Shown here one piece after another: positions 2,088 through 16,689 of a DNA stretch of 64,000 nt. This stretch comes from a bacterium (GTDB taxonomy: Bacteria; Patescibacteriota; Minisyncoccia; UBA6257; GWB1-50-10), in contig JAKANQ010000001.1 in the NCBI GenBank assembly GCA_021812365.1, positions 32,763 through 96,762 of the forward strand, given 5' to 3'. A model generated the notes under the pieces. The model saw nothing but the letters and a program-made list of their open reading frames with translations. It was not told the DNA's origin and made no database searches. The first letter of the stretch is position 1. Each line of letters opens with the position of its first letter. The translations under genes and the position numbers were made by a program.

Positions 2088-2225
2088 CTAGAGCTAGAAC
2101 CGACCAGGTTCAAGCCCTGTAAAGCGGATTTGAACTAATTTTAACCTATTTCACGACGCATCTCGAGCGCTCCATATTTTCTAGAAAGTGACAAAAGTGA
2201 CACAAGAATGGGACTTTAGTGCGTC

Positions 2226-2648
2226 CTAGTATCTTCGTAATCCAGTTTTATCCAATATTACCCGAACAGTTAAATAGCAAGCGGGATAAAGGATTACGGT
2301 ACCTGTGATGGTAAGCCAATTACTGGCGAAAACATCCGATCCCCAAATTAAACCAATAACAAAAAGGATTCCAAAATAAAGATAGTTGTATAGCACGCTA
2401 CCCAACATTCCCCAACGACCCAATACGGCTCTAACCGCTGCGATAATAAGTATCACCGCGAGTACCACGATAATTGATAACCAATGTGCCGACAGAAACG
2501 ACAACAAGGCATTCCACAACATGCGATATGCCTGCTTCGTTCCCTCATCAATAGCATTAAAAAACGCATCAAGCGTTTTCTTTGTAAACTCGGTTCCTGT
2601 CGCTGTGCTAGTAGAGTTCATTTTTGAGATTAAAACACATGACCCCAA
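2226..2648 (-). CDS. small polytopic membrane protein (3 predicted TM helices), last gene of the TIR operon
   Basis: 140 aa. Soluble N-terminus of about 50 aa, then three hydrophobic helices. Overlaps the upstream TIR-like gene by 19 nt, indicating translational coupling. Confidence 0.5.
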   Translation of the reverse strand: MGSCVLISKMNSTSTATGTEFTKKTLDAFFNAIDEGTKQAYRMLWNALLSFLSAHWLSIIVVLAVILIIAAVRAVLGRWGMLGSVLYNYLYFGILFVIGLIWGSDVFASNWLTITGTVILYPACYLTVRVILDKTGLRRY

Positions 2649-3181
2649 CTTAAATAAGTATCCTTGGAATAATAAGATAAGCCGCTTTTGGGAAGTTTAT
2701 TGAAATCAAATTGTGAAACTGCATCTGCTATTGGCTCTTTTTTGAAAGGTACATGAATAACCATAGCGGTTTTATTATTAATACGTTCAGTGAGAGCCTT
2801 TGGCCAAAGAGAAGATAAGGCGACAGGATCCATAATTCTTTCATAACCCGTGTATGCCGCAATGATTGGCATTTTACAGTTATCTACAGCGTGAGCTATT
2901 TCAAATGGAATCCAGTCTGTGTCTAGACGAGTCGTCGGACCGATAATCAATAGAAGATGTTTTGAATTATTCATCCTTTCTCTGAGCGCACGCCTCAAAG
3001 TTTCTTTGGTGCTTGAATCTCTAACATCACGTTTTTCGTGACTGTTTATAAATTTAAAATCTCCATCTTCATCTCTCACTTTCCACATTCGGAGCGTATT
3101 GTAATACTTCATGTCCGAATCTGTTGGATCTGAAGTATTGTTAGCATGAAATGCTACATATGTGCCGTTTCTATAGTTCAT
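2630..3181 (-). CDS. TIR-like domain protein (DUF1863/ThsB-type)
   Basis: 183 aa. N-terminal TYVAFHANNTSD matches the TIR betaA-type F-x-S-[FY]-x-x-D pattern. A central hydrophobic strand HLLLIIGPTT is followed by DWIPFEIAHAV, a W-x-x-FE motif with a candidate catalytic Glu. Overall layout resembles Thoeris ThsB as I recall it. Confidence 0.55.
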   Translation of the reverse strand: MNYRNGTYVAFHANNTSDPTDSDMKYYNTLRMWKVRDEDGDFKFINSHEKRDVRDSSTKETLRRALRERMNNSKHLLLIIGPTTRLDTDWIPFEIAHAVDNCKMPIIAAYTGYERIMDPVALSSLWPKALTERINNKTAMVIHVPFKKEPIADAVSQFDFNKLPKSGLSYYSKDTYLSWGHVF

Positions 3182-3183
3182 AG

Positions 3184-3786
3184 TTATTTCTCCTTTTGTT
3201 TTTTGTGGATCATTATCAGATATAAAATAATTGAGATCGAGAGAAGAATAAAAATAATTACATTAAGAAACGAACTGAGCGACAATCCGCTAATACAAGC
3301 GGCTTTAATTTCCCCGTATATTTTCGTAGCACTTATAGCAAGCAAGAGTAATGGGAAAATTATCGTATAAAGTGTCCACATCCAATCAGAAAAGATTGGG
3401 TATCGATCAAGATATGATTTTCCCTCTCGCGTAATGATGTCCTCGCCAGACTCCTTGTTTAGAGACTCCTCGATTTTATGGACGTAGGAATATTGTCTTT
3501 CAACAAAAACGGCTACTTGAAAATAGCGGATTGTGAAGATAAGCAAAAGAAACCATGCAATATTCCCTATAATAGCTAGATCTAATTTAAGATTTAAGCC
3601 AAATTTAAAATTTAAAAAATCATTAACTACAACATCGGATGTAATTGGAGAAATTATTTGAAAGGCCAAAAAACCAAGAGCGAGGACGACAAAAATCATT
3701 AAGCGATCACGCCTTTTCACACTCTCATTAATAATTGCACAAGTGTCTTTATAGTGATCGTAAATTATTGATATTTTTTCAGACAT
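3184..3786 (-). CDS. polytopic membrane protein (4 predicted TM helices), no recognisable soluble domain
   Basis: 200 aa. TM helices near LMIFVVLALGFLAFQII, LAIIGNIAWFLLLIFTI, TLYTIIFPLLLLAISA and FLNVIIFILLSISIILYLIMI. Sits between two TIR-like genes, with 2 nt and 8 nt junctions. Confidence 0.5.
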   Translation of the reverse strand: MSEKISIIYDHYKDTCAIINESVKRRDRLMIFVVLALGFLAFQIISPITSDVVVNDFLNFKFGLNLKLDLAIIGNIAWFLLLIFTIRYFQVAVFVERQYSYVHKIEESLNKESGEDIITREGKSYLDRYPIFSDWMWTLYTIIFPLLLLAISATKIYGEIKAACISGLSLSSFLNVIIFILLSISIILYLIMIHKKQKEK

Positions 3787-4234
3787 ACCTACGAATAAAC
3801 TGGTTGGGATAAGGGGCTTCGTCGAGAGCCTTTAGTATGTTTGCTTCTGTAAACGAATATACCCAAGCGGCCCTTGATCCTAAAAGTTCTTCAGGAGATT
3901 CAAACGTTCTATCTAATTTAACTGCTGCGATTCGCTTACCAAGATCAATACTTTGCCGCACTTCGAAGTTTATCCAATTTTTATATCCAATGAGGCCACG
4001 ATTTCTGTGTGGGGAGTTTGCATGTTCACCAACAATCACGAGTGTATGAGTAGCATCTTTTATCTTGGATGTAAGCGCCGCCTTTATTCTTCCGACATTT
4101 GAGCTATTAATTTCTTCTGGAGTAGCATCGTCAAATACAAATTTGAACTTTGGATTTTCATTCCAAGCTTCGAGTAGGTATTTATAATGCTTGTCGTTGT
4201 CGTAATCAAAACTGACAAATACTGAAGGTTTCAT
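3779..4234 (-). CDS. TIR-like domain protein (DUF1863/MTH538-type), second copy
   Basis: 151 aa. SVFVSFDYDNDKHYKYLLEAW is a classic TIR-like N-terminus. THTLVIVGEHANS is followed by NWINFEVRQSI, the same W-x-x-FE motif seen in the 183-aa paralog. Confidence 0.55.
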   Translation of the reverse strand: MKPSVFVSFDYDNDKHYKYLLEAWNENPKFKFVFDDATPEEINSSNVGRIKAALTSKIKDATHTLVIVGEHANSPHRNRGLIGYKNWINFEVRQSIDLGKRIAAVKLDRTFESPEELLGSRAAWVYSFTEANILKALDEAPYPNQFIRRYV

Positions 4235-4245
4235 TTTGTGTTTGT

Positions 4246-4485
4246 TTAATTTTTCCTATCTTTCGGCGGATTCGGATCCTTGCCGTAGCTATCTTTATCA
4301 CTGATTTTGCCATCCTTGTTGTGAATGACATGCTCAACTCCTGCTTTTTTAGCTTCGCGAATAGATTTTTCTTCGGCAGTTTCTTTAGTGTGAGAAGAAG
4401 AAACAGGTTTTTGCTGACCCTCTTTCTTGGTTTCCCACATACCACGGTCGGAGTTATAAACCGTATGAATGTTCTTTTTTGACAT
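4246..4485 (-). CDS. DUF2188-family small protein
   Basis: 79 aa. HTVYNSDRGMWETKKEG ... ELVIHNKDGKISDKDSYGKDPNPPKD matches the DUF2188 signature (hVvP..GWavk..G ... IHg.DG.I.d..SYG.DP.PP.D). Confidence 0.55.
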   Translation of the reverse strand: MSKKNIHTVYNSDRGMWETKKEGQQKPVSSSHTKETAEEKSIREAKKAGVEHVIHNKDGKISDKDSYGKDPNPPKDRKN

Positions 4486-4487
4486 GG

Positions 4488-5147
4488 TTAACTTGATTTT
4501 GGTTTTTTAATTACGTCTACGACCTTTCCGCTGATCTGAAAATCATCTCCTCTGTGAACGAATATAGGCATGAATGTTTCGGTGGATTCAGACTCAAGCA
4601 CAATCTGATCGTGTTCTTTATCTTCCTTGTAGCGTTTAATGGTGCCCATGCCGTCGATAACCGCCACCACGATATCTCCATTTTTAGGATTCTTGTAGGT
4701 GCTATCAACCACGACAAAATCACCATCCTCAATGGTTGGACCATCGGGACGTACCTTCGCCAAATTCATAGACAGACCATCTGCAACGAGAACAAAGAGG
4801 TCCTGCTTCTTACGGGGTAGCATTTTAGCGGAAACCTTGAGGTATCCCTCTGTTCGACTTTCCGCGAATATGGTTGCTGGCCCGCAATTTGCAGCTCCCA
4901 CGATAGGAAGGGAGTAGAACAGGCTCTTAGCGGCTGATTTAAGGTTAAAGCCCCTGCTTACGGGCTTTATAACGCCCTTATCGAGGTTAACCTGCAATAA
5001 CCCAGCTTTTCCCAGCTGGATCAGGTGGTGTTTCACGATCTGGGGCTTGTTTTCCACCCCGATGAGTTTAGCGATTTGGCGATAGCTCAAAGACTCCAAA
5101 TTTTGATGTTTTGAGAGGTTTAATATTGCGGCCTGGATTTTATGCAT
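4488..5147 (-). CDS. LexA/cI-like S24-family transcriptional repressor (HTH plus autopeptidase)
   Basis: 219 aa. N-terminal HTH (LSYRQIAKLIGV). C-terminal S24 fold with the Ser in VADGLSMN and the Lys in GTIKRYK. An internal GPA cleavage-site candidate is present. First gene of the minus-strand operon; divergent from a plus-strand promoter. Confidence 0.65.
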   Translation of the reverse strand: MHKIQAAILNLSKHQNLESLSYRQIAKLIGVENKPQIVKHHLIQLGKAGLLQVNLDKGVIKPVSRGFNLKSAAKSLFYSLPIVGAANCGPATIFAESRTEGYLKVSAKMLPRKKQDLFVLVADGLSMNLAKVRPDGPTIEDGDFVVVDSTYKNPKNGDIVVAVIDGMGTIKRYKEDKEHDQIVLESESTETFMPIFVHRGDDFQISGKVVDVIKKPKSS

Positions 5148-5153
5148 GCCTTA

Positions 5154-5182: not shown

Positions 5183-5209
5183 GCTCGTCCGTAAATAAGT
5201 TTTACACGG

Positions 5210-5237
5210 TTGACACTATCTCGGGTGGTTATATAAT
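5210..5237 (+). promoter_or_regulatory. sigma70-like promoter (TTGACA, 16 nt spacer, TATAAT) for the small zinc-ribbon gene, divergent from the repressor
   Basis: TTGACActatctcgggtggttaTATAATggaactATG. A nearby inverted repeat GTAAAtaagtTTTAC (5191-5205) may be an operator. Confidence 0.5.
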
Positions 5238-5243: not shown

Positions 5244-5528
5244 ATGTCCATGCAAAAGGTCGGTGAAAATCGGTTTCTGTATCGTTGCCCTAAATGTGAT
5301 ATGCCTATGCTGGAAAAGGTGGGGTCTAAACTTCTCCTTTTGCAACACTACAAGGGGCAGCGTGTTAAAACCGAGATAGAACGGGATTTGATAGCTCCCA
5401 CCAACAAGCTCACTATTCGGTGCGGCTCATGTAAAGAAGGAGCACAAACGTTTCTTCACTTCACAGAAATAATCAGAATGGGAGAATCCACTTCGGCGAA
5501 AGTAGTTGAGGTAGGTAGCGTGGTATAA
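5244..5528 (+). CDS. small zinc-ribbon protein (CxxC ... CxxC), cro/regulator-like position
   Basis: 94 aa. Cys pairs at YRCPKCDMP and IRCGSCKEG. Lies immediately downstream of a near-consensus promoter. Confidence 0.45.
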   Translation: MSMQKVGENRFLYRCPKCDMPMLEKVGSKLLLLQHYKGQRVKTEIERDLIAPTNKLTIRCGSCKEGAQTFLHFTEIIRMGESTSAKVVEVGSVV

Positions 5529-5561: not shown

Positions 5562-5625
5562 GTCTGGAACGCCCAGACATTCATCTATACCAAATGGTAT
5601 GGGTGCGTGTCTGGGCGTTTTTTGT
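5562..5625 (+). terminator. rho-independent terminator with an alternative upstream hairpin (attenuator-like)
   Basis: acgcccagaca (5569-5579) can pair either with upstream gtctgg (5562-5567) or with downstream tgtctgggcgt (5608-5618), which is followed by TTTTTT. Lies in the leader of the ParB-MTase gene. Confidence 0.5.
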
Positions 5626-5683
5626 TTATCGAGTAAAGGTCGACGGTAAACATTCAAACGCCTCAACAAAAATAAACAAAAAC

Positions 5684-6976
5684 ATGAAACATCTAACTTG
5701 GCACAATGAAATAAGGAAAGTTAAGGACCTCATTCCCTGTGGTTCCAACCCACGCGTTATATCAGATAAAGAGCTTCGGGATCTTAAAAAAAGTATTAAG
5801 CGTTCAGGATATGCGGAGATTATCGCAATTGATGTTGATGGGGAAATTGTTGCAGGTAATCAGAGGCATCGCGCTCTTATGGAAATGGGTATGGGTGACA
5901 CAGAGGTAGATGTCCGGGCTCCGAGCCGTAAGCTCACAAAAGAAGAGTTCGATCGCTACCTTATAGCAAGCAACGCGCTTGGTGGCACTTGGGATTTTGA
6001 GAAGCTTAAATCGTTCAATCTCGATGAATTGATCGACATTGGATTCGATAAAAAAGAACTGGAGAATATTTGGACCGAAAATCTTGAGGTTGAAGATGAT
6101 GATTTTAACGAAACCGCTGAACTTAAAAAGATAAAGATTGCCAAAACCAAGCGCGGTGATTTAATCGCGCTTGGTCCTCATAAGCTTCTTTGCGGGGATT
6201 CTACCAAGCCTGAAACGCTCAAGCGGTTATTCGGGAAAGAACGCGCTTCTGTAATTTATAGCGACCCCGTTTATAATCTCCGTGGTGGTGTTGATTACAA
6301 CAAGGGCATCGGCGGCCGCGCAAATTATGGTGGCCATGTAAACGACACCCGCACCGACGATGAATACCGGGATTTTATTCGGAAAAGTCTTGAGTGCGCC
6401 CTTTCCGTGACTAAAGAAGATGCCCATGTCTTCTATTGGAACGACGAATCGAATATTTGGTTAATCCAAACCCTTTACCGTGAGCTAGGAATAGCGAACA
6501 AGCGCGTTTGTTTGTGGCTCAAGAACGGACAGAACCCGACTCCTGGCGTTGCATTCAATAAGTGCTATGAGCCATGCATTTACGGGGTTCGCGGAAAGCC
6601 ATATATCTCAAAGAACTTGCAGAACCTGAACGAGGTGATGAATAAGGAAATCACGACTGGCAACAGTCTCCTTGAAGAAACGCTTGATCACTTGGATGTG
6701 TGGATGGTAAGGCGTCTTTCTGGCAAAAGTTATGAACACGCCACGAGTAAACCAACCAAGCTTCACGAAAAAGCAATTCGGAGATGTACCTGTCCGGGTG
6801 AAATTATCTTGGATAGCTTTCTAGGCTCTGGCAGCACGTTAATCGCGGCCGAACAATTGAAGCGTCGCGTCTATGCCATCGAACTTGAGCCTATCTTCTG
6901 TGATCTTGCAATTAAACGGTATGAACGGCTCAGCGGGAAAAAGGCAAAAGTAATCCACCACTATGAAGAAGAATAA
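5684..6976 (+). CDS. ParB-like nuclease domain fused to a beta-class N4/N6 DNA methyltransferase (phage-type)
   Basis: N-terminal ParB/Srx-like domain (EIIAIDVDGEIVAGNQRHRA). MTase motif IV variant SDPVY and motif I LDSFLGSGST in IV-then-I order. The track ORF starts at 5594, but that extension crosses the terminator, so the Met at 5684 is the likely start. Confidence 0.6.
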   Translation: MKHLTWHNEIRKVKDLIPCGSNPRVISDKELRDLKKSIKRSGYAEIIAIDVDGEIVAGNQRHRALMEMGMGDTEVDVRAPSRKLTKEEFDRYLIASNALGGTWDFEKLKSFNLDELIDIGFDKKELENIWTENLEVEDDDFNETAELKKIKIAKTKRGDLIALGPHKLLCGDSTKPETLKRLFGKERASVIYSDPVYNLRGGVDYNKGIGGRANYGGHVNDTRTDDEYRDFIRKSLECALSVTKEDAHVFYWNDESNIWLIQTLYRELGIANKRVCLWLKNGQNPTPGVAFNKCYEPCIYGVRGKPYISKNLQNLNEVMNKEITTGNSLLEETLDHLDVWMVRRLSGKSYEHATSKPTKLHEKAIRRCTCPGEIILDSFLGSGSTLIAAEQLKRRVYAIELEPIFCDLAIKRYERLSGKKAKVIHHYEEE

Positions 6977-7364
6977 AAAGCAAAGTGAATTTTTGGAGCA
7001 ACTCAAGAAGATTCCTATTGTTTCCGTAGCTGCGGAGAAAACCGGCCTCTCGCGCAACAGTATCTATCGTTGGAAGCGGGATGATAAGGAATTTGAGAAG
7101 ACCATGGAAGATGCTCTCGCAGAGGGCGAAGCCCTTATTAACGATATGAGTGAGAGCCAACTACTCTCGTTCATCAAGGATAAGAGTTGGCAAGCGGTGT
7201 CATTTTGGTTGCGTCACAGAAACCCGAAGTTCCGCGAGCGCGTGGAAGTAACGGCGAAAATTGAAAATATTGAGTCGCTCACGCCAGAACAAGAAGATAT
7301 TGTTCGGAAAGCATTAGAGCTTGAATCGCAGGAAAAAGAATTACCAAAAGAGATACAAGTATGA
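6963..7364 (+). CDS. phage terminase small subunit-like HTH protein
   Basis: 133 aa. HTH (TGLSRNSIYRWKRDD). Overlaps the upstream ParB-MTase gene by 14 nt. Its stop overlaps the start of the large-subunit gene (ATGA). Confidence 0.5.
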   Translation: MKKNKKQSEFLEQLKKIPIVSVAAEKTGLSRNSIYRWKRDDKEFEKTMEDALAEGEALINDMSESQLLSFIKDKSWQAVSFWLRHRNPKFRERVEVTAKIENIESLTPEQEDIVRKALELESQEKELPKEIQV

Positions 7365-8855: not shown

Positions 8856-9494
8856 TTACCGATAGTCTTCAACAATCATCGTATAAGTGCCGATTGTATT
8901 GGCATCAATGTAGTATTCTCCAGCACCGTACTCAATCGTTTCATCCTTCACCGGACCCATTACATTCATAATCGCTCCGGCTAGTATTTTACCTTTGTAC
9001 AAAAATGCCTGACAAAAATCTCCGGTACAGTCATAACGAATCCGAAAACGCGAACCCGTTATAGTAAAGGGTTCAGATTTCTTCGCGCCGTTTCCGGAAA
9101 AGGTAAAGATTTGTTGGTACGATTTTCCGGGTTGAACCGCAACTGGTTGCGTACGTTCGGGGCTTGTCGGTTGCTGATTATTAACGGTCTTACTCGCCTC
9201 GGGTGACGGCGTATTGTTCTGAGAAATCTCCGCGCCACCGTTCTTCGCTATGAAGACCCCGGCCAAAATAACCAGAATTATAATCGCCAAGATTCTAACC
9301 CCACTCGACAACTCATGCTTAATCCTACCCTCAATGATTTTGTTTATCGGCGGAATCGAAATTGTCGAGGCAACAATAAAGAGAAACCCAGCAAGTGTGT
9401 TGCTTGCTATATTAGCGATTCCCGTAATGAGCAGTATCACGCCAACCAACCATCCAAGAATCAAACCAACGGTTATTTTTTTGTTTTCGTTCAT
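8856..9494 (-). CDS. membrane protein (2 TM helices, Pro/Gln-rich linker, C-terminal beta-rich domain), unknown function
   Basis: 212 aa. Two N-terminal helices, then a low-complexity linker NNTPSPEASKTVNNQQPTSPERTQP, then a Cys-containing C-terminal domain. Confidence 0.45.
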   Translation of the reverse strand: MNENKKITVGLILGWLVGVILLITGIANIASNTLAGFLFIVASTISIPPINKIIEGRIKHELSSGVRILAIIILVILAGVFIAKNGGAEISQNNTPSPEASKTVNNQQPTSPERTQPVAVQPGKSYQQIFTFSGNGAKKSEPFTITGSRFRIRYDCTGDFCQAFLYKGKILAGAIMNVMGPVKDETIEYGAGEYYIDANTIGTYTMIVEDYR

Positions 9495-11257: not shown

Positions 11258-14200
11258 ATGTCGGACACATTACTTAAAGTAGTTCCAAAACAGCGGAAAT
11301 ACTATCAGGATAAAGCTAATAGCCTGAGGCTACTTGCGGCAAAAGAATTGAGAGATGCCTTTTTGGCCTCCTATGATGAGGATATCTCTCGAAAAACTGT
11401 TTCCGAGTCTTGTTTGGCTGAGTATATTGATACCTTTCCCGATCAAGACTCAGTAAAAACTTTTGCCTTTAATCTTTTAATAAACAATAAAGCTATAGAC
11501 GACTTACTGAAGGGATATGATCCGATAGAAATATCATATGTTGGCTCTTATATAGGAGAGGCAACCTACAGATCCTTTATCAGTCCAACTGATATTTCTC
11601 GAGTAATGGATTTCTTGGCACCATCAAAGGCTATTGGGTATTTTTTCACACCACCGGAGGTAGCATTCTTAATGGCCGATAAAATAATATCTTCTACTGA
11701 CAAAAGTATTGATATCCTAGATCCGAGTGCTGGATACGGTTCGCTATTAGTCGCGTCCTTAATAGTAGCAAAGAATAAAGGGGCAAAATTTAGTTCTGTA
11801 ACCGCAATTGAAGTTGATTCATTTACCTCAAAGAATTTAAAAAAGATTCTTGAAAGAGTTGTCGAGCTATTAGAATTTGATACAAAGCTAAATATTATCA
11901 ATGAAAATGCCATAGGATATTTAGCCAATAGTTTAAACGGTTTATTCGGTCGCCCTGCAAGATTTCAAAAAATCATAATGAATCCACCCTATGGGAGGGT
12001 GAAGTTTTTGAAAAACTTTTTAACAAACAAAGAAACTAGAACCTCTAGCGCTTTATTATCTCACGAAGAACAAGGGATAAAAATAAAAACAAAAGTAGAA
12101 AAGCTAACAAGAGAATTAGATATCATTTCACAAAAGCTCGGTTTCGATTCCAACGTAAGAGAGTACTCGAAATTATTTGTTGCATTAAGCCTCTCAAACT
12201 TAGCTCCCGACGGCCGGATGAGCGTGATTACCCCAAGTACTTGGCTTGGTGATGTTGAGTCGTATGACTTAAGGAAATTAATCATTAACAACTCATACCT
12301 AGAGCAAATTTTACTTTTCCCTGAAGACAGCGGCTTATTCGAAACCGTGAATCAACACACGGCAGTCAGTATCTTGTCTAAACAAGAAAAGGAAATGTTC
12401 GAGATTGTATCCGATTACAATTTGAATGTAAAATTTAGCAGGTCAAACAAGGTTTACTACGCCGATATTAAAAAAAATAATCCACAGGGATTAAAAATCC
12501 CGAAGCATGGCTCGGAGCATGATGAAATCATTTCCAAAATTCAACAACATAAACCGATCCGGCTAATTGAAAACTTAAAGAACCTTAGGGGAGAAATAGA
12601 TCTCTCCTTAAACAAGGATCTAGTATCCAACAAAGACACTGGCCGTCGATTAATCAGAGGCGATCACGTGGAAAGGTACATACTGCATCCGACGACAAAA
12701 TCTAAACGAGATGGATTCATTGAAGAAAGTAGGCTTGGCGAGAAGTTTCGATCACTTCCTAAATTTAAAGATAGTTTAAATTTCAGAATTGTTGGACGCC
12801 AAGTTTCTTACTTAGATAAAAAGAGGCGCTTAGATTTTTGCCTTATTGATCCTGATAGTTTTGTGAGTAATTCTTGCAACTACCTTTACTTTAAGTCTGA
12901 CGACGGCCAAAAAAAACCGAGCAGAAAGTTACTATCTTTATTGGGGATATTAAATAGCTCTGTTCTTGAATGGTATTTCAGGCTTTACAATAGCAACAAC
13001 CATGTCGCTAACTACGAGATAGCAAATTTTCCAGTCTGCTTAGATAGTGAATTTATTCCGCTAATAGCGAAATCTACGGAATTTCTTATCGGGGCATATA
13101 AAGAAGAATCACGGGATGAATCTGTTTCTGGCATAGAAGATTTCCACGATGCCTTGGTTGGCGTGGCGTATGATCTTACGCCAATAATGATCGGTACTAT
13201 TATGGAGTCAATTGACCCCAAAAGAAAAGGTAGGGTTGTAAATTTTGCGGAACACATATGTGAAGGTAATCTACCTCTCGATTTTATGAAGAGCGATCAT
13301 TGGTTTAATCATTATGTCTCAACGCTGTCTGATTTAGACCAAGAGATAATTAAACATGTTCCCCAAGGAGGAAATTGGCAAGATATTCCCGAGGAAGTTC
13401 CTTCTCAAAGGCTACGGCAGATACGTGAAATGTCGAAAGAGCGCGGTGTTGTGCGAACTACCTATTATGGAAGACTAAGACCGGATCAACCATCATATAC
13501 CATTGCTACGTACTATAATCGTCCCGGTAATGGAACAAACATTCATCCATGGGAAGACAGGACGATTTCTTCGCGTGAAGCGGCAAGACTCCAATCTTTT
13601 CCCGATAGTTATATTTTCTTTGGATCTGAAGGCGGTATTAGAACTCAGATAGGAAATGCCGTCCCTCCGCTACTTGCTTATTCATTGGGAAAGCATATCG
13701 GAAGCCGCTATGGCTTTGGCACCTGCGTTGACGCCTTTGCCGGTGCCGGTGGTCTAAGTTGTGGATTAGAGCTTGCTGGCTGGAAAGTGATTGCGGCTAA
13801 CGACAATGATAAACACGCCTCAATAACTTACCGGGCGAATAGGCCCACGGAAAAGACGCCGACTAGTGATGACAAAAAGACTTTCTTTGTAGAGGGAGAT
13901 ATTAACAATAAGAAAATTTGGGAAGAACTTTTATCAGGAATCAAAAAGAAGCTCGGCAATAAAGAATTAGATCTGCTAGTAGGTGGCCCACCGTGCCAAG
14001 GGTTTTCCCACGCTGGATTCAGAAGAGAGGATGATATACGCAACGACCTAGCCTCTATATATTTGAAGCTAGCAATTAAGCTAAGTCCTAAGACCTTTAT
14101 TCTTGAAAATGTAGAGGGACTTCTCACATACAATTCCGGACAGGTAGTAAAGGATATCATTGAGGCTTTGACGGATATCGGCTATCACGTTGAAGCTCCA

Positions 14201-14521
14201 TGGGTACTTAACGCAGAGCAATTTGGCGTACCTCAAATGCGAAGACGAGTATTGATTGTTGCGAATAGAAAAGAAATTGTGCCAAATATGCCAAACTTAT
14301 TTCGCAAATGTGCTGGTCGACGTTCTGGAAAGGTTATTGAGCAACTACACTTAGCACCTCCCGTGACTGCGGGAGAGGCTCTTATAGATCTACCACCGCT
14401 AAAGAAAAGAAGATTTCTAAAGGGAATTAATGATATTAACAAATTGTATTCCCAATGGTTAAAAGGGCTAATTAGCGCTGAGAGATTCCTAGAATCGCGA
14501 TCTAAGATAAGGGAATCGTAG
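11258..14521 (+). CDS. fused DNA methyltransferase: N-terminal gamma-class N6-adenine MTase (Eco57I/TaqI-like) plus C-terminal circularly permuted C5-cytosine MTase
   Basis: 1087 aa. N-terminal motif I ILDPSAGYGSLL and motif IV IIMNPPYG. C-terminal region carries motif IX/X (REAARLQSFPD, GNAVPP) before motif I (FAGAGGLSCG), motif IV (GGPPCQGFS), motif VI (ENVEGLL) and motif VIII (QFGVPQMRRRVLIV). Confidence 0.7.
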   Translation: MSDTLLKVVPKQRKYYQDKANSLRLLAAKELRDAFLASYDEDISRKTVSESCLAEYIDTFPDQDSVKTFAFNLLINNKAIDDLLKGYDPIEISYVGSYIGEATYRSFISPTDISRVMDFLAPSKAIGYFFTPPEVAFLMADKIISSTDKSIDILDPSAGYGSLLVASLIVAKNKGAKFSSVTAIEVDSFTSKNLKKILERVVELLEFDTKLNIINENAIGYLANSLNGLFGRPARFQKIIMNPPYGRVKFLKNFLTNKETRTSSALLSHEEQGIKIKTKVEKLTRELDIISQKLGFDSNVREYSKLFVALSLSNLAPDGRMSVITPSTWLGDVESYDLRKLIINNSYLEQILLFPEDSGLFETVNQHTAVSILSKQEKEMFEIVSDYNLNVKFSRSNKVYYADIKKNNPQGLKIPKHGSEHDEIISKIQQHKPIRLIENLKNLRGEIDLSLNKDLVSNKDTGRRLIRGDHVERYILHPTTKSKRDGFIEESRLGEKFRSLPKFKDSLNFRIVGRQVSYLDKKRRLDFCLIDPDSFVSNSCNYLYFKSDDGQKKPSRKLLSLLGILNSSVLEWYFRLYNSNNHVANYEIANFPVCLDSEFIPLIAKSTEFLIGAYKEESRDESVSGIEDFHDALVGVAYDLTPIMIGTIMESIDPKRKGRVVNFAEHICEGNLPLDFMKSDHWFNHYVSTLSDLDQEIIKHVPQGGNWQDIPEEVPSQRLRQIREMSKERGVVRTTYYGRLRPDQPSYTIATYYNRPGNGTNIHPWEDRTISSREAARLQSFPDSYIFFGSEGGIRTQIGNAVPPLLAYSLGKHIGSRYGFGTCVDAFAGAGGLSCGLELAGWKVIAANDNDKHASITYRANRPTEKTPTSDDKKTFFVEGDINNKKIWEELLSGIKKKLGNKELDLLVGGPPCQGFSHAGFRREDDIRNDLASIYLKLAIKLSPKTFILENVEGLLTYNSGQVVKDIIEALTDIGYHVEAPWVLNAEQFGVPQMRRRVLIVANRKEIVPNMPNLFRKCAGRRSGKVIEQLHLAPPVTAGEALIDLPPLKKRRFLKGINDINKLYSQWLKGLISAERFLESRSKIRES

Positions 14522-16082
14522 TAGAATCGCTGAGGATAGAAAAAACTTGGCGTAACTTTTTGCTTAGAGCAGAGTACTTCTTAGAATCAATTTTCTTTGA
14601 TCGCAAGCCTGAGATATTGCTTTCTCTTTTTGTGCTAGAAACATTTGTTTTCATAGCCCTGTCCCAATTCTTCATATCTGGTGACAGAGGTATTTTCTTT
14701 GCTTCGGCAACAACCGCATCAATTTCGCCACTAAAGTTATCTACGTAGATCTTACGCACCTTCCTATCAACAATGGACTTATCTTGATAAAGCATAAGTT
14801 CTTCGAACGCTATGCGAATTATTCTGTTCGAAAGACTATTGCGAAGCTTAGTATTGATTGGCGTTTTACTAAAGCTTGCAAAGGTTAGGTCACTAGAATT
14901 AAGTTTGTCGAACTTAACTCTGAACAGCGCATATTCTGGATGGAGTATCGTCGTTAGATATTCTGAATAACCGTTCTCGAAAAGAGAGTAAAGCGTTCTA
15001 AGATAGAAGTCTTGCATCGCCCTCATGTAGTCACTCAACTCTTTGGCATCCCTATCGTTTTTGACCAAAAACTTGTACTTATCCCACAATGGTTGCACTT
15101 GCCAACTAGCCACAGATTCATTTGTGCGTTTTTCATAGTCAATTAATATCTTTATATCGCTTAAAAACATTCTGCGATTCTTACTACTATTACAAGGTCC
15201 GCAAGTTGGGAGAAATAAAGGAAGCTGTTTAAATCCACAAGCTAAAGGACCAACATGATCTGGACTTATTTTCTTAAGCTTTTTGCCGCATATGTAACAC
15301 CTTCCGGCGCCAGCGGAATTATATAGCGCGTCAGCGATCAGCCAATCGCCGTCAGACCATAATTCAAAAACCCTTCTATCGTGAAGATAAGATTTAAGGT
15401 TTTCGGGCGATCTTCCGGGGTCTTTTGTAGCTCTGCATAAGTGGCAATAGTCATGGAAACCATCTAAGCGATCTGGTGGATTGCACATGAAACCGGGACT
15501 CAGATAGACTGAACGAATATAATTACTTTTCTCAAAAGCTTCTTTGGAAAAACCAAATTTATTAAAGAAATCAGCTCTTTCGGGAAAAATCTTTTCTAGG
15601 CGCTCTTCAATCTGCTTTTTATTTTCGATTCCGCCAAGAATTTTGATCGCCTCGTCAATAGGCATCTTTTTTGAGAATAGAGAAGTTTTTGTTTCTCTGT
15701 TTAGATATTCTGTAAATACGTGATTGAGATAGAAATAGCCGACGTTTTGCGATTTCCCGCATAGACGACAAGGTCTATAGCCTGTGGGGCTAATCAACCT
15801 CGCCGTTATACTAAAACGATCATCAGAATTTCCTTTTCCCGGAACTTTAAGACTGTTCGCCTTTTTAACCCACCACTCAAAGCGCTCTACGTAATATTTG
15901 TAAAAAGAGGTTGATTTGCCAGAGCTGACTTGCCAATTTATTTTCCCATTTTCAGATATGGCGTTAGGCATTCCTTTGAAGTTGGGGTGTTTAACAATAA
16001 GGCCCATGTAATCAATGTAATTTTGATGGGCCTGATATTTCCCTCTGCCGTAAACTGGTTTTGCCATTTCCTTCACTTCCAT
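14502..16082 (-). CDS. putative HNH-type restriction endonuclease (Type IIS-like partner of the fused MTase)
   Basis: 526 aa. HNH/His-Me finger CYICGKKL ... SPDHVGPL ... CGPCNSSKNRR. Convergent with the MTase and overlapping it by 20 nt. AT-rich. Confidence 0.5.
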   Translation of the reverse strand: MEVKEMAKPVYGRGKYQAHQNYIDYMGLIVKHPNFKGMPNAISENGKINWQVSSGKSTSFYKYYVERFEWWVKKANSLKVPGKGNSDDRFSITARLISPTGYRPCRLCGKSQNVGYFYLNHVFTEYLNRETKTSLFSKKMPIDEAIKILGGIENKKQIEERLEKIFPERADFFNKFGFSKEAFEKSNYIRSVYLSPGFMCNPPDRLDGFHDYCHLCRATKDPGRSPENLKSYLHDRRVFELWSDGDWLIADALYNSAGAGRCYICGKKLKKISPDHVGPLACGFKQLPLFLPTCGPCNSSKNRRMFLSDIKILIDYEKRTNESVASWQVQPLWDKYKFLVKNDRDAKELSDYMRAMQDFYLRTLYSLFENGYSEYLTTILHPEYALFRVKFDKLNSSDLTFASFSKTPINTKLRNSLSNRIIRIAFEELMLYQDKSIVDRKVRKIYVDNFSGEIDAVVAEAKKIPLSPDMKNWDRAMKTNVSSTKRESNISGLRSKKIDSKKYSALSKKLRQVFSILSDSTTIPLS

Positions 16083-16150
16083 AACCGAAATATGCCACTT
16101 TTTAGGTGTTTTTACAATGTTGTTTTTGTTTTATCAAGAACACCAAAAAG

Positions 16151-16180
16151 AAAAACCACTGAAATTTATCAGTGGTTTTT
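16151..16180. terminator. bidirectional rho-independent terminator
   Basis: aaaaaccactga / tcagtggttttt arms around a 6 nt loop, with A-run and T-run flanks. Confidence 0.6.
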
Positions 16181-16285
16181 CTTTCTTGAATACGGCACTC
16201 AGCCGGTATGCTATGGACTGTATGGAGTGCTCTCGCTCTTCGGCTTGATCCACGCTTCTCGAGCGGGATAACCTATCACGAGTTG

Positions 16286-16338
16286 GCTGGGGGACTAGGA
16301 ATCGGACCTAGATTCACGGCTTCAAAGGCCGCTGTCCT
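16286..16338 (-). repeat. 53 bp exact direct repeat of the 3' part of tRNA-Gln (tRNA positions about 20 to 3' end), 100 bp from the gene
   Basis: gctgggggactaggaatcggacctagattcacggcttcaaaggccgctgtcct is identical at 16286-16338 and 16386-16438. Confidence 0.8.
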
Positions 16339-16386
16339 GTCGCTCGCGCAGTGAGGAAATAAATACATGAACATTTCTATGCATTG

Positions 16387-16457
16387 CTGGGGGACTAGGA
16401 ATCGGACCTAGATTCACGGCTTCAAAGGCCGCTGTCCTACCATTAGACGATCCCCCA
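16387..16457 (-). tRNA. tRNA-Gln (anticodon UUG); CCA not encoded
   Basis: Minus strand TGGGGGATCGTCTAATGGTAGGACAGCGGCCTTTGAAGCCGTGAATCTAGGTCCGATTCCTAGTCCCCCAG. Acceptor TGGGGGA/TCCCCCA, 3 bp D-stem, anticodon stem GCGGC/GCCGT, loop CUUUGAA, T-stem CTAGG/CCTAG. The T-loop is noncanonical (UCCGAUU). Confidence 0.65.
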
Positions 16458-16523
16458 GCAATACACACAAAAACATGTGCATGTATTATATTTCCGAACG
16501 AAACGTAGTGACAAGCGTAGCGC

Positions 16524-16543
16524 TACCATTAGACGATCCCCCA
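16524..16543 (-). repeat. 20 bp exact copy of the tRNA-Gln 5' end (positions 1-20), about 80 bp upstream of the gene
   Basis: taccattagacgatccccca occurs at 16438-16457 (inside the tRNA) and again at 16524-16543. The breakpoint is the same D-loop position where the 3' repeat begins. Confidence 0.7.
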
Positions 16544-16689
16544 ATGAAGATAACTTTATACAATAAACGCAAAAGTGTAAATGAAAAGTACGTTCATAGA
16601 GGAACGTCGTTTTATAAGGTTTCAACGGCATAAACCATGCGTTATTCGGGGAATATGATATAATCGAATTAATCATTTCGAACTATCCT

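What the first reader, a model, noticed from the sequence alone, without database searches (positions are those of the whole stretch)
2100..16545. About 14 kb defence island with approximate boundaries, stacking Abi-like, R-M and phage-derived genes
Between the EmrAB-like genes and the two-component locus lies a block with a different character. It holds a phage repressor, a terminase, a serine recombinase, the R-M system and the TIR module, and it ends at a tRNA gene with att-like repeats. Its right end is AT-rich. The left boundary, around 2.1-2.2 kb, has no clear att copy. The intergenic region there contains a short direct repeat agtgacaaaagtgaca and a tRNA T-arm-like segment, accaggTTCAAGCcctg, which cannot be completed into a tRNA.
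Basis: partly seen in the sequence, partly recalled or inferred. Interest (0 to 1): 0.55.

Follow-up and report, generated by a model that had tools for sequence, protein, structure and literature searches.

The report
Terminase-carrying integrative defence element at tRNA-Gln
The 14-kb block is a real, horizontally acquired island, but it is one mobile element rather than a pile-up of genes: a member of a large, apparently undescribed family from candidate-phyla-radiation bacteria that inserts next to tRNA genes with a serine recombinase and carries its own phage DNA-packaging genes plus swappable anti-phage cargo.

Summary
Window 2084-16285 (14.2 kb) is absent from related genomes that keep both flanks. 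It holds two TIR + membrane-protein pairs, DUF2188, an S24 repressor, a ParB-methylase, TerS, TerL, a membrane protein behind a LOOT RNA, a large serine recombinase (LSR) and an Alw26I-type IIS R-M system. GC is mosaic: 0.38 / 0.455 / 0.38-0.39, against 0.447 for the host.

It is a single element. Its two ends rebuild an imperfect-palindrome attP that matches the intact attP of a related circular 12-kb contig. The right arm abuts the 3' end of tRNA-Gln, as in three close relatives. More than 574 metagenomic contigs, with Patescibacteria as the only taxon group named, share methylase-TerS-(TerL)-[cargo]-LSR-[cargo]-tRNA. No capsid, tail, lysis or replication gene was recognised.

The 53-nt tRNA repeat is not the island's att duplication. 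It is half of the original tRNA-Gln, split earlier by a 184-bp insert that carries a replacement tRNA.

Best reading: an LSR-integrating, repressor-controlled, satellite-like element with defence cargo. The single-element and LSR reading is about 0.9 likely; helper-dependent packaging about 0.45. Novelty: new variant of a known kind.

The parts
2079..2083 (.). attL core GCTGG: last host bases before the island, identical to 16286-16290
   Evidence: Homology with the empty site L003 stops at 2083. A Logan contig from SRR13300764 ends exactly at 2083 and overlaps the island-bearing contig by k-1 = 30 nt.
2084..2140 (+). Left (P') arm of the element: degenerate tRNA-3'-half-like sequence GCTGG|CCATCTAGAGCTAGAACC...TCAAGCCCTG
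   Evidence: The same arm is conserved at the left end of L061, L072, L093, L094, L107, L119 and L124, and in the attP of the circular contig L068. Rfam gives no tRNA call.
2153..2169 (+). Left copy of the ACGACGC-N-TCTCGAGCG motif, which is also present near the right end
   Evidence: Read directly. The same motif precedes the GTGACA repeat in L061, L072, L084 and L107.
2186..2202 (+). AAGTGACAAAAGTGACA: family-wide left-end signature (candidate pac site, origin or operator; function unknown)
   Evidence: 27 hits with at most 2 mismatches in 25 related loci, all in the LSR orientation. There is only one copy in the 64-kb window.
2226..2648 (-). Small membrane protein (about 3 TM helices, no family hit); partner of the TIR protein at 2630-3181
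   Evidence: no hits; hydropathy. A 40% identical homologue occurs in L071.
2630..3181 (-). ThsB-type TIR protein
   Evidence: Pfam PF08937 7e-16. PADLOC ThsB1 1.3e-62. 84% identical copy at the same position in L063.
3184..3786 (-). Membrane protein of about 4 TM helices, no family hit, lying between the two TIR genes
   Evidence: 67% identical copy in L063.
3779..4234 (-). Second ThsB-type TIR protein
   Evidence: PF08937 6.7e-11. PADLOC ThsB1 2e-14 and PDC-M50B 3e-9.
4246..4485 (-). DUF2188 protein (PADLOC candidate PDC-S16), co-oriented with the repressor
   Evidence: The DUF2188-S24 pair recurs in L020, L109 and L133.
4488..5147 (-). S24 (LexA/CI-type) autocleavable repressor
   Evidence: PF00717 9.5e-22. 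phrog_4 repressor. TIGR00498 lexA 4.7e-25. Family G5 occurs in 17 related loci.
5210..5237 (+). Consensus sigma-70-type promoter (TTGACA-16-TATAAT, 12/12), divergent from the repressor and facing the U94-methylase-TerS-TerL operon
5244..5528 (+). 94-aa CxxC zinc-ribbon protein, first gene of the rightward operon (Cro/excision-factor position; function unknown)
5594..6976 (+). ParB-N domain + N6/N4 DNA methyltransferase (public gene call starts near 5684)
   Evidence: PF01555 3.4e-26. phrog_498 9e-84. Core family G1 in 80 loci.
6963..7364 (+). Terminase small subunit
   Evidence: phrog_4044 5e-12. Core family G2 in 72 loci.
7361..8800 (+). Terminase large subunit, intact
   Evidence: phrog_38 7e-81. 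Walker A and B motifs and the nuclease acidic residues are invariant in 12 relatives. 492 clusters at 50% identity with E<=1e-30.
8856..9494 (-). Membrane protein (about 3 N-terminal TM helices + beta-rich C-terminal domain) in the TerL-LSR slot, which holds DUF4352/Sie-like genes in relatives
   Evidence: No profile homology to DUF4352.
9560..9679 (-). LOOT RNA (Rfam RF03000), 66 nt upstream of the membrane-protein gene and 166 nt from the LSR start
   Evidence: 87.8 bits against a gathering score of 46.4. Found in 61 of 122 related loci.
9845..11164 (+). Large serine recombinase (Resolvase + Recombinase + Zn-ribbon)
   Evidence: phrog_95 1.4e-61. More than 574 metagenomic relatives.
11258..14521 (+). 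Fused N6-adenine + C5-cytosine DNA methyltransferase (Alw26I/Eco31I/Esp3I type)
   Evidence: PF02384, PF07669 and PF00145. PADLOC MTase_II 1e-296.
14502..16082 (-). Alw26I/Eco31I/Esp3I-family type IIS restriction endonuclease
   Evidence: PF09665 3e-92. PADLOC REase_II 1.6e-174. Its >=90% identity cluster includes a 'candidate division WS5 bacterium' protein.
16251..16285 (+). Right (P) arm: CACGCTTCTCGAGCGG + GATAACCTATCACGAGTTG
   Evidence: The same arm abuts the 3' end of an intact tRNA-Gln in L059, L062 and L063, and the P' arm in the attP of L068.
16286..16338 (-). attR core (16286-16290) plus the 3' 53 nt of the ORIGINAL tRNA-Gln (host DNA, the integration target)
   Evidence: 100% identical to 16386-16438. 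Fused to the 5' fragment as one intact tRNA in relatives L137-L142.
16339..16522 (-). Older 184-bp insert (spacer, intact promoter-bearing tRNA-Gln at 16386-16457, spacer) that splits the original tRNA at CT. Not part of the island.
   Evidence: Present without the island in L143-L145 and L003. Absent in L137-L142. Both alleles occur in L146. Promoter-like site at 16514-16485.
16523..16543 (-). 5' 21 nt of the original tRNA-Gln (host)

Best explanation
Window 2084-16285 is one integrative mobile element. It belongs to a large family found in Patescibacteria (candidate phyla radiation).

Integration. The element's large serine recombinase (LSR) recombined an imperfect-palindrome attP (...GATAACCTATCACGAGTTG-GCTGG-CCATCTAGAGCTAGAACC...) with the extreme 3' end of a tRNA-Gln sequence. 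The target here was the disabled 3' half of the original tRNA-Gln. Only a 5-nt core is shared between attL and attR.

Family backbone. The order is: S24 repressor (leftward), small protein, ParB-methylase, TerS, (TerL), [slot 1], LSR, [slot 2], tRNA. A third cargo slot lies between attL and the repressor.

Cargo in this copy. The left slot holds two TIR + membrane-protein pairs and DUF2188. Slot 1 holds a LOOT-RNA-led membrane protein. Slot 2 holds an Alw26I-type IIS R-M system.

Inferred life cycle (not shown):
- The LexA/CI-type repressor keeps the consensus-promoter operon (methylase-TerS-TerL) off.
- On SOS or helper-phage infection the operon is expressed.
- The element's own terminase then loads element DNA into capsids supplied by a helper phage, because the element has no recognisable capsid, tail, lysis or replication genes.
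- Packaging possibly starts at the conserved left-end GTGACA repeat.
- The methylase pre-protects the DNA.
- In the resting state the cargo defends the host and the element against other phages.

Confidence by step: about 0.9 that this is a single LSR-bounded element of this family; about 0.45 for helper-dependent packaging. The overall figure of 0.6 blends the two.
For: Insertion:
- The empty site L003 keeps both flanks without the island.
- Nine loci of closer relatives lack it.
- The island is present in all 11 contigs carrying the identical TIR protein.
- The assembly graph of SRR13300764 branches exactly at 2083.

One unit:
- The right arm is conserved and abuts the tRNA-Gln 3' end in L059, L062 and L063.
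- L062 has an 18-nt tRNA-end repeat that delimits an 8.5-kb element.
- The left arm and the GTGACA signature are conserved in 25 loci.
- L068 is a circular 12,078-bp contig whose attP joins these same two arms. Both attPs are palindromic about the core, 11/16 and 10/16.
- L063 carries the same TIR / membrane protein / TIR genes, cut off at the left end of the locus, next to the S24 repressor as in the window.

Family:
- 42 IMG/VR loci and more than 574 metagenome loci encode relatives of the LSR.
- Of 67 loci with at least 4.5 kb upstream of the LSR, 56 have TerS or TerL upstream.
- The only families present in 20 or more loci are the LSR, the methylase, TerS and TerL.
- Cargo in relatives is type I, type III and type IIG R-M, a reverse transcriptase, a STAND NTPase and Sie-like proteins. 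No structural genes were found among it.
- The first downstream tRNA is on the opposite strand in 44 of 44 loci.
- The nearest-neighbour LSR shares the tRNA isotype in 29 of 45 cases, against a permutation mean of 12 and maximum of 25.
- TerL catalytic motifs are invariant.
- Tandem arrays occur.

Host: every named homologue of the flank protein and of TerL comes from Patescibacteria, Paceibacterota or Gracilibacteria, on contigs up to 1.18 Mb.

Regulation: a 12/12 consensus promoter lies divergent from the S24 gene.
Against: - No helper phage, virion-borne copy, excision product of this particular island, recombination directionality factor or pac site has been shown. Packaging is inferred from gene content only.
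- About one third of relatives lack TerL (TerS only), and L062 lacks the whole packaging module. The terminase is therefore not indispensable to the LSR unit.
- Many ORFs have no annotation, so divergent structural or replication genes cannot be fully excluded.
- The palindrome score alone is only marginal (P about 0.06 for any centre within a 127-nt stretch).
- The target here is a tRNA fragment rather than a live tRNA gene.
- The island appears fixed in this species' contigs.
- GC is mosaic, so modules were exchanged among elements.
Confidence: 0.6

Rival explanations
1. Decayed prophage plus accretion. A temperate phage integrated at tRNA-Gln and lost its structural, lysis and replication genes. 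Defence systems (TIR, R-M) later landed independently in the same hotspot, giving a classic defence island with no present mobility.
For: - Phage-type repressor, methylase and terminase are present while virion genes are absent.
- GC is mosaic, 0.38 / 0.455 / 0.39.
- The tRNA-Gln locus is a proven hotspot: the 184-bp insert and a variable EmrAB operon lie next to it.
- The island looks fixed in this species.
Against: - The same capsid-less architecture, with an intact and catalytically conserved TerL, recurs in dozens of loci whose proteins are only 40-80% identical. Independent decay would not converge on this.
- A complete circular 12-kb member has no structural genes.
- The outermost ends of the whole 14.2 kb, outside the TIR and R-M blocks, are the family's P' and P arms.
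- The TIR module sits in the same slot in L063.
Confidence: 0.1
2. A genuine LSR-mobilised defence island that is not a phage satellite. It would spread by natural transformation or another route. The methylase-TerS-TerL module would serve another purpose, for example interference with the packaging of invading phages, or self-methylation.
For: - No replication module and no demonstrated helper.
- TerL is dispensable in some members, and L062 has the LSR and R-M only.
- Satellites are known to use TerS-type proteins to interfere with helper packaging (PMC9618062).
- Cargo is overwhelmingly defence genes.
Against: - A complete, catalytically conserved TerS + TerL pair sits under a repressor-controlled promoter.
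- A strictly conserved, oriented end-proximal DNA repeat is present.
- These features, with sizes of 8-16 kb and tandem arrays, are what a packaged element needs.
- Interference alone would not require a nuclease-competent TerL.
Confidence: 0.25
3. The apparent insertion is an assembly or binning artefact: a chimeric metagenomic contig that joins phage and host DNA.
For: The source is a metagenome assembly. Logan contigs break at the left junction.
Against: The same junctions are found in independent assemblies from several samples and pipelines: ENA k141 contigs, Logan contigs, and NCBI GCA_016276955.3 for the TIR-to-methylase stretch of the island. The junctions coincide with family-typical att arms.
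Confidence: 0.02

Closest known systems
Phage satellites (PICIs/SaPIs, PLEs, PICMIs, marine VEIMEs)
   Same: - Small (8-16 kb) integrated elements with an integrase, a phage-type repressor and TerS.
- No capsid, tail or lysis genes.
- Variable anti-phage cargo, and tandem or hotspot integration.
- PLEs and VEIME module 3 also use serine recombinases (PMC9618062).
   Different: - No primase/replicase module was recognised.
- Most members carry a complete TerL as well as TerS, whereas the VEIME paper treats TerL as a helper function.
- A ParB-methylase is part of the core.
- The LSR targets tRNA 3' ends.
- Hosts are Patescibacteria.
- No helper or induction has been shown.
tRNA-linked genomic / defence islands (classically with tyrosine integrases)
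   Same: Inserted at the 3' side of a tRNA gene. Atypical composition. Absent from relatives. Cargo of R-M and abortive-infection-type genes. The element end contains a tRNA-3'-half-like sequence.
   Different: The recombinase is a large serine recombinase. Only 5 nt are shared between attL and attR here, and 18 nt in L062. The tRNA-like arm is degenerate and acts as a recombinase half-site, not as a replacement for the tRNA 3' end.
SCCmec-type cassettes (CcrA/B/C large serine recombinases)
   Same: LSR-mobilised, non-replicative, cargo-carrying cassettes that insert at the 3' end of a conserved host gene and form tandem arrays. CcrB is the best NCBIfam hit of the LSR (4.7e-33).
   Different: The score is far below the CcrB cut-off (115 against 900 bits). 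The target is different (tRNA rather than rlmH). A terminase/methylase/repressor module is present. The host phylum is different.
Thoeris (ThsA + ThsB)
   Same: Two ThsB-type TIR proteins (PADLOC ThsB1 1e-62 and 2e-14).
   Different: No ThsA (SIR2-SLOG or Macro) was found. Each TIR gene is instead followed by a small multi-pass membrane protein with no family hit.
Alw26I/Eco31I/Esp3I type IIS restriction-modification systems
   Same: PF09665 endonuclease next to a single methylase that fuses an N6-adenine domain and a C5-cytosine domain. From my own knowledge, this fused hybrid methylase is the hallmark of that group.
   Different: Specificity was not determined. GTCTC is not avoided genome-wide (ratio 0.88), although GGTCTC and CGTCTC are absent from the island.
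LOOT RNA motif (Rfam RF03000)
   Same: Full-length match well above the gathering score.
   Different: Rfam types it as an sRNA gene. From memory, it is known only from environmental sequences of unclassified origin. Here it sits in a defined mobile-element slot, 45-95 nt upstream of small, mostly membrane-anchored proteins. That position suggests a cis-acting leader.

Membership tests
Horizontally acquired genomic island | Absent from related genomes that retain both flanks | tested here: met
   L003, and L137-L146.
Horizontally acquired genomic island | Atypical composition | tested here: met
   GC 0.38-0.39 in three blocks against 0.447 +/- 0.015. Tetranucleotide z-scores up to 12. The S24-TerL block is host-like (0.455).
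Horizontally acquired genomic island | Own recombinase and definable att junctions | tested here: met
   LSR. The P and P' arms match relatives and the attP of L068.
Large serine recombinase element | Resolvase catalytic domain + Recombinase domain + zinc-ribbon domain | tested here: met
   PF00239 1.4e-19, PF07508 2.6e-14, PF13408 5.6e-8.
Large serine recombinase element | attP with dyad symmetry around a short core, and no long direct repeat at the junctions | tested here: met
   The core is 5 nt. The arms match 11/16 about the core. The same holds in the native attP of L068 (10/16). The palindrome statistic alone is marginal (P about 0.06).
Large serine recombinase element | Recombination activity and directionality factor | not testable with these tools
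   Needs an in vivo or in vitro attP x attB assay.
Prophage (intact or defective tailed phage) | Portal, major capsid, tail and lysis genes | tested here: not met
   No such hit for any island ORF in Pfam, PHROGs or NCBIfam. None among the recurrent families of 123 related loci. None in the circular contig L068.
Prophage (intact or defective tailed phage) | Terminase and lysogeny module | tested here: met
   TerS, TerL, S24 repressor and integrase.
PICI-type phage satellite | Integrase + master repressor + packaging-redirecting TerS, in an element of about 8-16 kb without virion genes | tested here: met
PICI-type phage satellite | Primase/replication-initiator module and origin | tested here: not met
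   No replication protein was recognised in the island or in L068. Unannotated ORFs remain.
PICI-type phage satellite | Induction by, and packaging into the particles of, a helper phage | not testable with these tools
   No virion-fraction data or read-level data were accessible.
Capsid-forming PICI (cf-PICI) | Own capsid, portal, protease and connector genes | tested here: not met
   None found.
Thoeris | ThsB TIR protein | tested here: met
   PADLOC ThsB1 1.3e-62 and 2.3e-14.
Thoeris | ThsA effector (SIR2-SLOG, or Macro-TM) | tested here: not met
   The neighbours are unannotated membrane proteins of 3 and 4 TM helices.
Type IIS R-M, Alw26I/Eco31I/Esp3I family | PF09665 endonuclease adjacent to a fused m6A + m5C methylase | tested here: met
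   3e-92, and PF02384 + PF00145 in a single 1087-aa protein. PADLOC 1.6e-174 and 1e-296.
Type IIS R-M, Alw26I/Eco31I/Esp3I family | Recognition of (N)GTCTC and cleavage outside the site | tested here: inconclusive
   No genome-wide avoidance (0.88). GGTCTC and CGTCTC occur 0 times in the island against 37 times outside it.
LOOT RNA (RF03000) | Covariance-model score above the gathering threshold | tested here: met
   87.8 against 46.4 bits. 12 of 12 relatives score 76-100 bits.

The most novel reading that the evidence does not exclude
The island represents a phylum-wide family of phage satellites of candidate-phyla-radiation bacteria that I could not find described in the literature I could search. 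These would be capsid-less, replication-less elements that integrate at tRNA 3' ends through a tRNA-specific clade of large serine recombinases. They would carry their own (distantly Mu-like) TerS/TerL and package from a strictly conserved left-end GTGACA repeat. Three cargo slots would shuttle R-M, TIR, STAND and reverse-transcriptase systems, one of them under the orphan LOOT RNA. If true, a good part of the 'proviruses' called in Patescibacteria genomes would be these elements rather than phages.
Probability: 0.35. Interest if true: 0.8.

Novelty: new variant of a known kind. Interest (0 to 1): 0.62.

Why it matters
Candidate-phyla-radiation bacteria have tiny genomes, and CRISPR is rare in them (PMC6509639). 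How they acquire and exchange phage defence is poorly known. At that paper's date, phages had been reported for very few of their phyla.

This island shows a concrete vehicle: a compact, recombinase-defined cassette carrier that is very abundant. There are more than 574 recombinase-related contigs, at least 2,788 TerL clusters at 90% identity, and 492 at 50% identity.

It matters for four reasons:
1. It gives testable att sites for a clade of serine integrases with tRNA-end specificity, which may be useful as genome-engineering tools.
2. It warns that terminase-based 'provirus' calls in Patescibacteria genomes may partly be such elements. One groundwater study reported proviruses in 20% of Patescibacteria MAGs (PMC12960796).
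3. It gives the orphan LOOT RNA a genomic home, a host phylum and a likely target gene class.
4. It makes directly testable the question of whether these epibiotic bacteria host phage satellites.

Tried and rejected
1. The genome-contig scan with the HlyD flank protein returned only a 25% identical Saccharibacteria locus.
2. The exact look-up of the 386-aa HlyD ORF failed because the true start is at 2048. It worked with the 373-aa form.
3. A scan of viral contigs with TerL found nothing, because single-protein patterns are too strict.
4. Searching for a left att copy by aligning the tRNA to 2050-2200 gave no significant match: 67/500 and 460/1000 shuffles scored as well. Rfam at E<=10 also found nothing. 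I therefore rejected the idea that a long tRNA repeat bounds the island.
5. I first read the 53-nt repeat as the island's attR duplication, or as the scar of a deleted tandem element. This was rejected once relatives showed that the 53-nt and 21-nt pieces are the two halves of one tRNA, split by a 184-bp insert.
6. I first read the roughly 8-kb 'long forms' between TerL and the LSR as phage structural modules. This was rejected: they are type I, type III and type IIG R-M systems and helicases. F18/F20/F37, suspected to be capsid/portal/protease, are a reverse transcriptase plus unknowns.
7. L016 looked circular, but its ends are only 93% identical, so it is a tandem array.
8. Exact searches for the reconstructed attP junction and for the left arm in viral contigs found nothing.
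9. Strict T-loop patterns between tandem copies found nothing. tRNA repeats were not found in the trimmed IMG/VR loci.
10. Homology of U212 to the DUF4352 (Sie-like) family is not supported by hhalign. Only position and topology are shared.
11. Literature searches for a prior description of this family found none. The library is incomplete, so prior description cannot be excluded.

Full report
**What is in the block**

Six-frame ORFs and four profile libraries agree on the gene content. From left to right:

| Coordinates | Strand | Feature |
|---|---|---|
| 2226-2648 | - | small membrane protein |
| 2630-3181 | - | ThsB-type TIR protein (PADLOC 1.3e-62) |
| 3184-3786 | - | membrane protein of about four TM helices |
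| 3779-4234 | - | second ThsB-type TIR protein |
| 4246-4485 | - | DUF2188 / PDC-S16 |
| 4488-5147 | - | S24 LexA/CI-type repressor |
| 5244-5528 | + | 94-aa zinc-ribbon protein |
| 5594-6976 | + | ParB-N + N6/N4 DNA methylase |
| 6963-7364 | + | TerS |
| 7361-8800 | + | TerL (phrog_38, 7e-81) |
| 8856-9494 | - | membrane protein |
| 9845-11164 | + | large serine recombinase (LSR) |
| 11258-14521 | + | fused m6A + m5C methylase |
| 14502-16082 | - | Alw26I/Eco31I/Esp3I-family endonuclease (PF09665, 3e-92) |

tRNA-Gln(ttg) lies at 16386-16457 on the minus strand. No ORF in the block hits a portal, capsid, tail, lysis or replication family.

Composition is mosaic, not simply 'AT-rich on the right':

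| Segment | GC |
|---|---|
| TIR block | 0.38 |
| repressor-to-TerL block | 0.455 |
| LSR gene | 0.38 |
| R-M genes | 0.39 |
| rest of the window | 0.447 (sd 0.015 over 2-kb windows) |

Tetranucleotide z-scores reach 8 at the left end and 12 at the right end.

**Host and source**

- The window is part of a 102-kb metagenomic contig.
- Named homologues of the flanking membrane-fusion protein are from Parcubacteria and Patescibacteria.
- Every named TerL homologue is from Patescibacteria, Paceibacterota or Gracilibacteria, on contigs up to 1.18 Mb.

**It is an insertion, and the boundaries are exact**

- A 94%-identical copy of the flanking HlyD-type gene lies on a short contig (L003). There it is followed directly by tRNA-Gln, the response regulator and the histidine kinase.
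- blastn puts L003 on window 759-2083 (88% identity) and on 16338-18425 (79% identity), with 28 nt in between.
- Nine further loci from closer relatives (response regulator at least 90% identical; flanks 83-88% identical) also lack the block.
- All 11 contigs that encode the identical TIR protein carry the block in the same context.
- In one sample (SRR13300764) the k=31 assembly breaks exactly at 2083. One contig ends at ...AAAATGCTGG. The island-bearing contig overlaps it by 30 nt. This means a second continuation exists after that 30-mer in that sample. The simplest candidate is an unoccupied site. That last step is inference.

**The tRNA repeats are an older story**

The two fragments partition the tRNA exactly and overlap by the dinucleotide CT.

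Relatives resolve this:

| Loci | State of the tRNA-Gln locus |
|---|---|
| L137-L142 | The two fragments are fused into one intact tRNA-Gln. |
| L143-L145, and L003 in decayed form | They are separated by the same 184-bp insert seen in the window: spacer, a complete promoter-bearing tRNA-Gln, spacer. The island is absent. |
| L146 | Both alleles are present in one scaffold. |

So an earlier insertion split the original tRNA at CT and supplied a replacement copy. The 14.2-kb island later integrated at the 3' end of the disabled 3' half. The neighbouring EmrAB-like operon is itself missing in L137-L145. At least three independent events therefore cluster at this tRNA.

**The island is one LSR unit**

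*Right end.* The last 35 nt of the island (CACGCTTCTCGAGCGG GATAACCTATCACGAGTTG) are conserved in the three closest LSR relatives that have downstream sequence (L059, L062, L063; LSR 82% identical). There they abut the 3' end of an intact tRNA-Gln. In L062 an 18-nt copy of that tRNA end lies 8.5 kb to the left and delimits the element.

*Left end.* The first roughly 120 nt of the island have three features:
- a degenerate tRNA-3'-half-like arm (GCTGG|CCATCTAGAGCTAGAACC...TCAAGCCCTG);
- a second copy of the CGACGC-N-TCTCGAGCG motif;

This repeat occurs in 25 related loci. It is always on the LSR strand and near the left end. About 0.2 occurrences are expected by chance.

*Circular relative.* L068 is a circular contig (113-nt terminal overlap; unit 12,078 bp). 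In it a right arm is joined directly to a left arm: GATGACCTAGCTCGACT|TGGCGGGCC|GTCTCGAGTTCGGAC. This is the attP predicted by joining the window's two ends: GATAACCTATCACGAGT|TGGCTGGCC|ATCTAGAGCTAGAACC. Both are imperfect palindromes centred on the core, 11/16 and 10/16. On its own the palindrome score is marginal (P about 0.06 for any centre). Its coincidence with the junction, in two independent sequences, is what carries weight.

*Core.* The junctions in the window share only GCTGG (2079-2083 and 16286-16290), as expected for a serine recombinase. This explains why the tRNA core finds no left att copy.

*Cargo.* L063 carries 84%, 67% and 64% identical copies of the TIR / membrane protein / TIR genes. 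They run off the left edge of the locus and lie next to the S24 repressor, as in the window, in an element next to a different tRNA-Gln. The defence genes are therefore cargo inside the unit, not later arrivals.

**The family**

- The LSR has 42 relatives in IMG/VR contigs and more than 574 in JGI metagenome contigs.
- I analysed 122 related loci plus the window. Only four protein families occur in 20 or more of these 123: LSR (123), ParB-methylase (80), TerS (72) and TerL (63).
- Of the 67 loci with at least 4.5 kb upstream of the LSR, 56 have TerS or TerL there.
- The common order is: [cargo] S24-repressor(-) small-protein(+) methylase TerS (TerL) [slot 1] LSR [slot 2] tRNA(-).

Slot 1 varies:

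| TerL-to-LSR gap | Loci | Content |
|---|---|---|
| 400 nt or less | 15 | empty |
| 400-1500 nt | 10 | often one reverse-strand gene for a small membrane protein (e.g. DUF4352/Sie-like, or the window's 212-aa protein) |
| more than 1500 nt | 13 | kilobases of R-M genes |

Annotated cargo includes type I (HsdM/S/R), type III (Res/Mod) and type IIG + PLD-SNF2 systems, PIF1 helicase, a reverse transcriptase and a STAND NTPase. L068 also carries a few metabolic genes. No structural phage gene was found among the cargo, the recurrent families or the circular contig L068.

Further family properties:
- TerL keeps Walker A (AFRGSAKST), Walker B (LIICDDVED) and the nuclease acidic residues across 38-53% identical members. 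It is under selection, not decaying.
- A TerS-only subset exists (L068, L105, L133 and others). L062 lacks the packaging module altogether.
- Tandem arrays are frequent: L012+L022, L016, L023+L033, L039+L042.
- The first tRNA downstream of the LSR is on the opposite strand in 44 of 44 loci: Gln 19, Ser 11, Trp 6, Glu 4, Asn 2, Asp 1, Phe 1.
- The nearest-neighbour LSR shares the tRNA isotype in 29 of 45 cases, against a permutation mean of 12 and maximum of 25. The tRNA linkage is thus a property of the recombinase.
- TerL has at least 2,788 relatives at 90% clustering and 492 at 50% clustering with E<=1e-30.
- Its nearest cultured relatives are Mu-like Pseudomonas phages, at only 27% identity.

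**How it most likely works**

*Shown:*
- the insertion polymorphism;
- the att arms and core;
- the family architecture;
- intact catalytic motifs;
- a perfect TTGACA-16-TATAAT promoter at 5210-5237, divergent from the repressor gene and facing the methylase-terminase operon;
- a terminator-like hairpin after TerL.

*Inferred:*
- The S24 repressor silences that operon until RecA-stimulated or helper-triggered cleavage.
- The element has no recognisable virion or replication genes. Its TerS/TerL would therefore load element DNA into capsids of a helper phage.
- The strictly conserved, oriented, end-proximal GTGACA repeat is the best candidate for the packaging (or replication/operator) site. 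By analogy with Mu, whose pac site is at the left end (my own knowledge), packaging could even start on the integrated copy.
- The methylase would pre-protect the DNA.
- In the resting state the TIR + membrane-protein pairs, the membrane protein in slot 1 and the IIS R-M system protect the cell.

I put about 0.9 on 'single LSR-bounded element of this family' and about 0.45 on the helper-dependent packaging step.

The main rival keeps the LSR unit but denies satellite behaviour (0.25). A decayed prophage with accreted defence genes is unlikely, given the convergent architecture and the position of the att arms (0.1).

**An unexpected component**

The 350-nt gap before the LSR gene contains a full-length LOOT RNA (Rfam RF03000) at 9560-9679 on the minus strand. 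It scores 87.8 bits against a gathering score of 46.4.

- Twelve of twelve relatives tested with Rfam have it, at 76-100 bits.
- A model built from these finds it in 61 of 122 related loci and in none of five host-only loci.
- It usually lies 130-170 nt from the LSR start on the opposite strand.
- In 49 of 62 cases an ORF starts on its own strand, typically 45-95 nt past its 3' end. 32 of those ORFs have an N-terminal TM helix.
- In L013 the LOOT-DUF4352 pair lies 6 kb away from the LSR.

This pattern suggests a cis-acting leader for the slot-1 gene rather than the free sRNA under which Rfam lists it. The source paper (PMC5737381) says nothing about the motif in its main text, and its supplements were not available.

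**Comparison with what is known**

The element works like a phage satellite or a tRNA-linked defence island, but it fails membership tests for the named families:
- no primase/replicase, so not a PICI or PLE;
- no capsid module, so not a cf-PICI;
- no virion genes, so not a prophage;
- no ThsA, so not canonical Thoeris.

The R-M pair meets the Alw26I-family definition at the sequence level. Marine VEIME satellites include serine-recombinase and TerS-bearing modules, but that paper treats TerL as a helper function (PMC9618062).

Seven literature searches found no description of this family, and the papers read in follow-up did not describe it either. The library is incomplete, so this is absence of evidence only. 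I therefore class it as a new variant of a known kind.

**Verdict**

The finding is real and its coordinates are nearly right. The interpretation should be upgraded from 'stack of defence and phage genes' to 'one member of an abundant, capsid-less, terminase-bearing, tRNA-targeting LSR element family of candidate-phyla-radiation bacteria, with three cargo slots'.

Noticed in passing
window 16286-16543; L137-L146, L003: The original tRNA-Gln is split at a CT dinucleotide in the D arm by a 184-bp insert (spacer, complete tRNA-Gln with its own promoter-like site at 16514-16485, spacer). Relatives show the uninterrupted gene (L137-L142), the split form (L143-L145, L003), and both alleles in one scaffold (L146). 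A 2-bp overlap is what a serine recombinase would leave, but no enzyme or parent element is identified.
   Followed up: partly
window 9560-9679 (-); 61 related loci: The orphan Rfam motif LOOT (RF03000) is a recurrent component of this element family. It usually lies between slot 1 and the LSR gene, 45-95 nt upstream of small, mostly membrane-anchored proteins. This suggests a cis-acting leader and gives the motif a host phylum (Patescibacteria).
   Followed up: partly
left of window position 2083 (EmrAB-like operon, runs off the window start); L052, L137-L145: The HlyD / YknX-like / MFS operon that flanks the island is itself absent from the closest island-free relatives, where DnaX and a 159-aa gene abut the tRNA locus. 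It is present in L003 and in more distant relatives (L006). The flank is therefore also variable.
   Followed up: partly
L143 9595-9640, also L144 and L145: In the island-free relatives, the disabled 3' tRNA half carries an extra 46-nt insertion in its anticodon-stem region that the window lacks.
   Followed up: no
window 2084-16285 against the rest of the window: GGTCTC and CGTCTC (Eco31I and Esp3I sites) occur 0 times in the island and 37 times in the remaining 49.8 kb. GTCTC occurs 6 times against 64. Genome-wide, GTCTC is not avoided (observed/expected 0.88). This may be site avoidance by the mobile element; the lower GC of the island was not corrected for.
   Followed up: partly
window 14502-16082: The restriction endonuclease falls in a >=90% identity cluster with a protein annotated from 'candidate division WS5 bacterium' (RJO61195.1). 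This indicates recent sharing of the R-M cassette across lineages.
   Followed up: no
window 5568-5619: A 25-nt inverted repeat (84% complementary, 2-nt loop) lies between the zinc-ribbon gene and the methylase start as called in public assemblies. It could be a terminator/antiterminator or a protein-binding site.
   Followed up: no
window 2142-2169 and 16251-16282: The sub-motifs TAACCTAT(T)TCACGA and GC(A/T)TCTCGAGCG occur at both ends of the island, in swapped order (B-A on the left, A-B on the right). The TCTCG-loop hairpin shows stem variation among relatives. They could be accessory recombinase or directionality-factor sites.
   Followed up: partly
L094 11146-11165; L136 12760-12775; L085 14300-14315; L091 11466-11480: Short (15-20 nt) exact copies of tRNA 5' or 3' termini lie 125-250 nt from the parent tRNA in several unrelated hosts of the family. 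This suggests that small tRNA-end scars like those in the window are common in these genomes.
   Followed up: no
L030, L011, L025, L033 (family F18): Some relatives carry a reverse transcriptase (PF00078, 6e-28) with two or three small conserved partners in slot 1. It could be a DGR or a defence-associated RT.
   Followed up: no
L093, L094, L103, L107, L126, L135: In several loci the GTGACA signature lies immediately upstream of an LSR gene rather than upstream of cargo and the repressor. L093 has two LSR genes. The family therefore has alternative gene orders or very short members.
   Followed up: no
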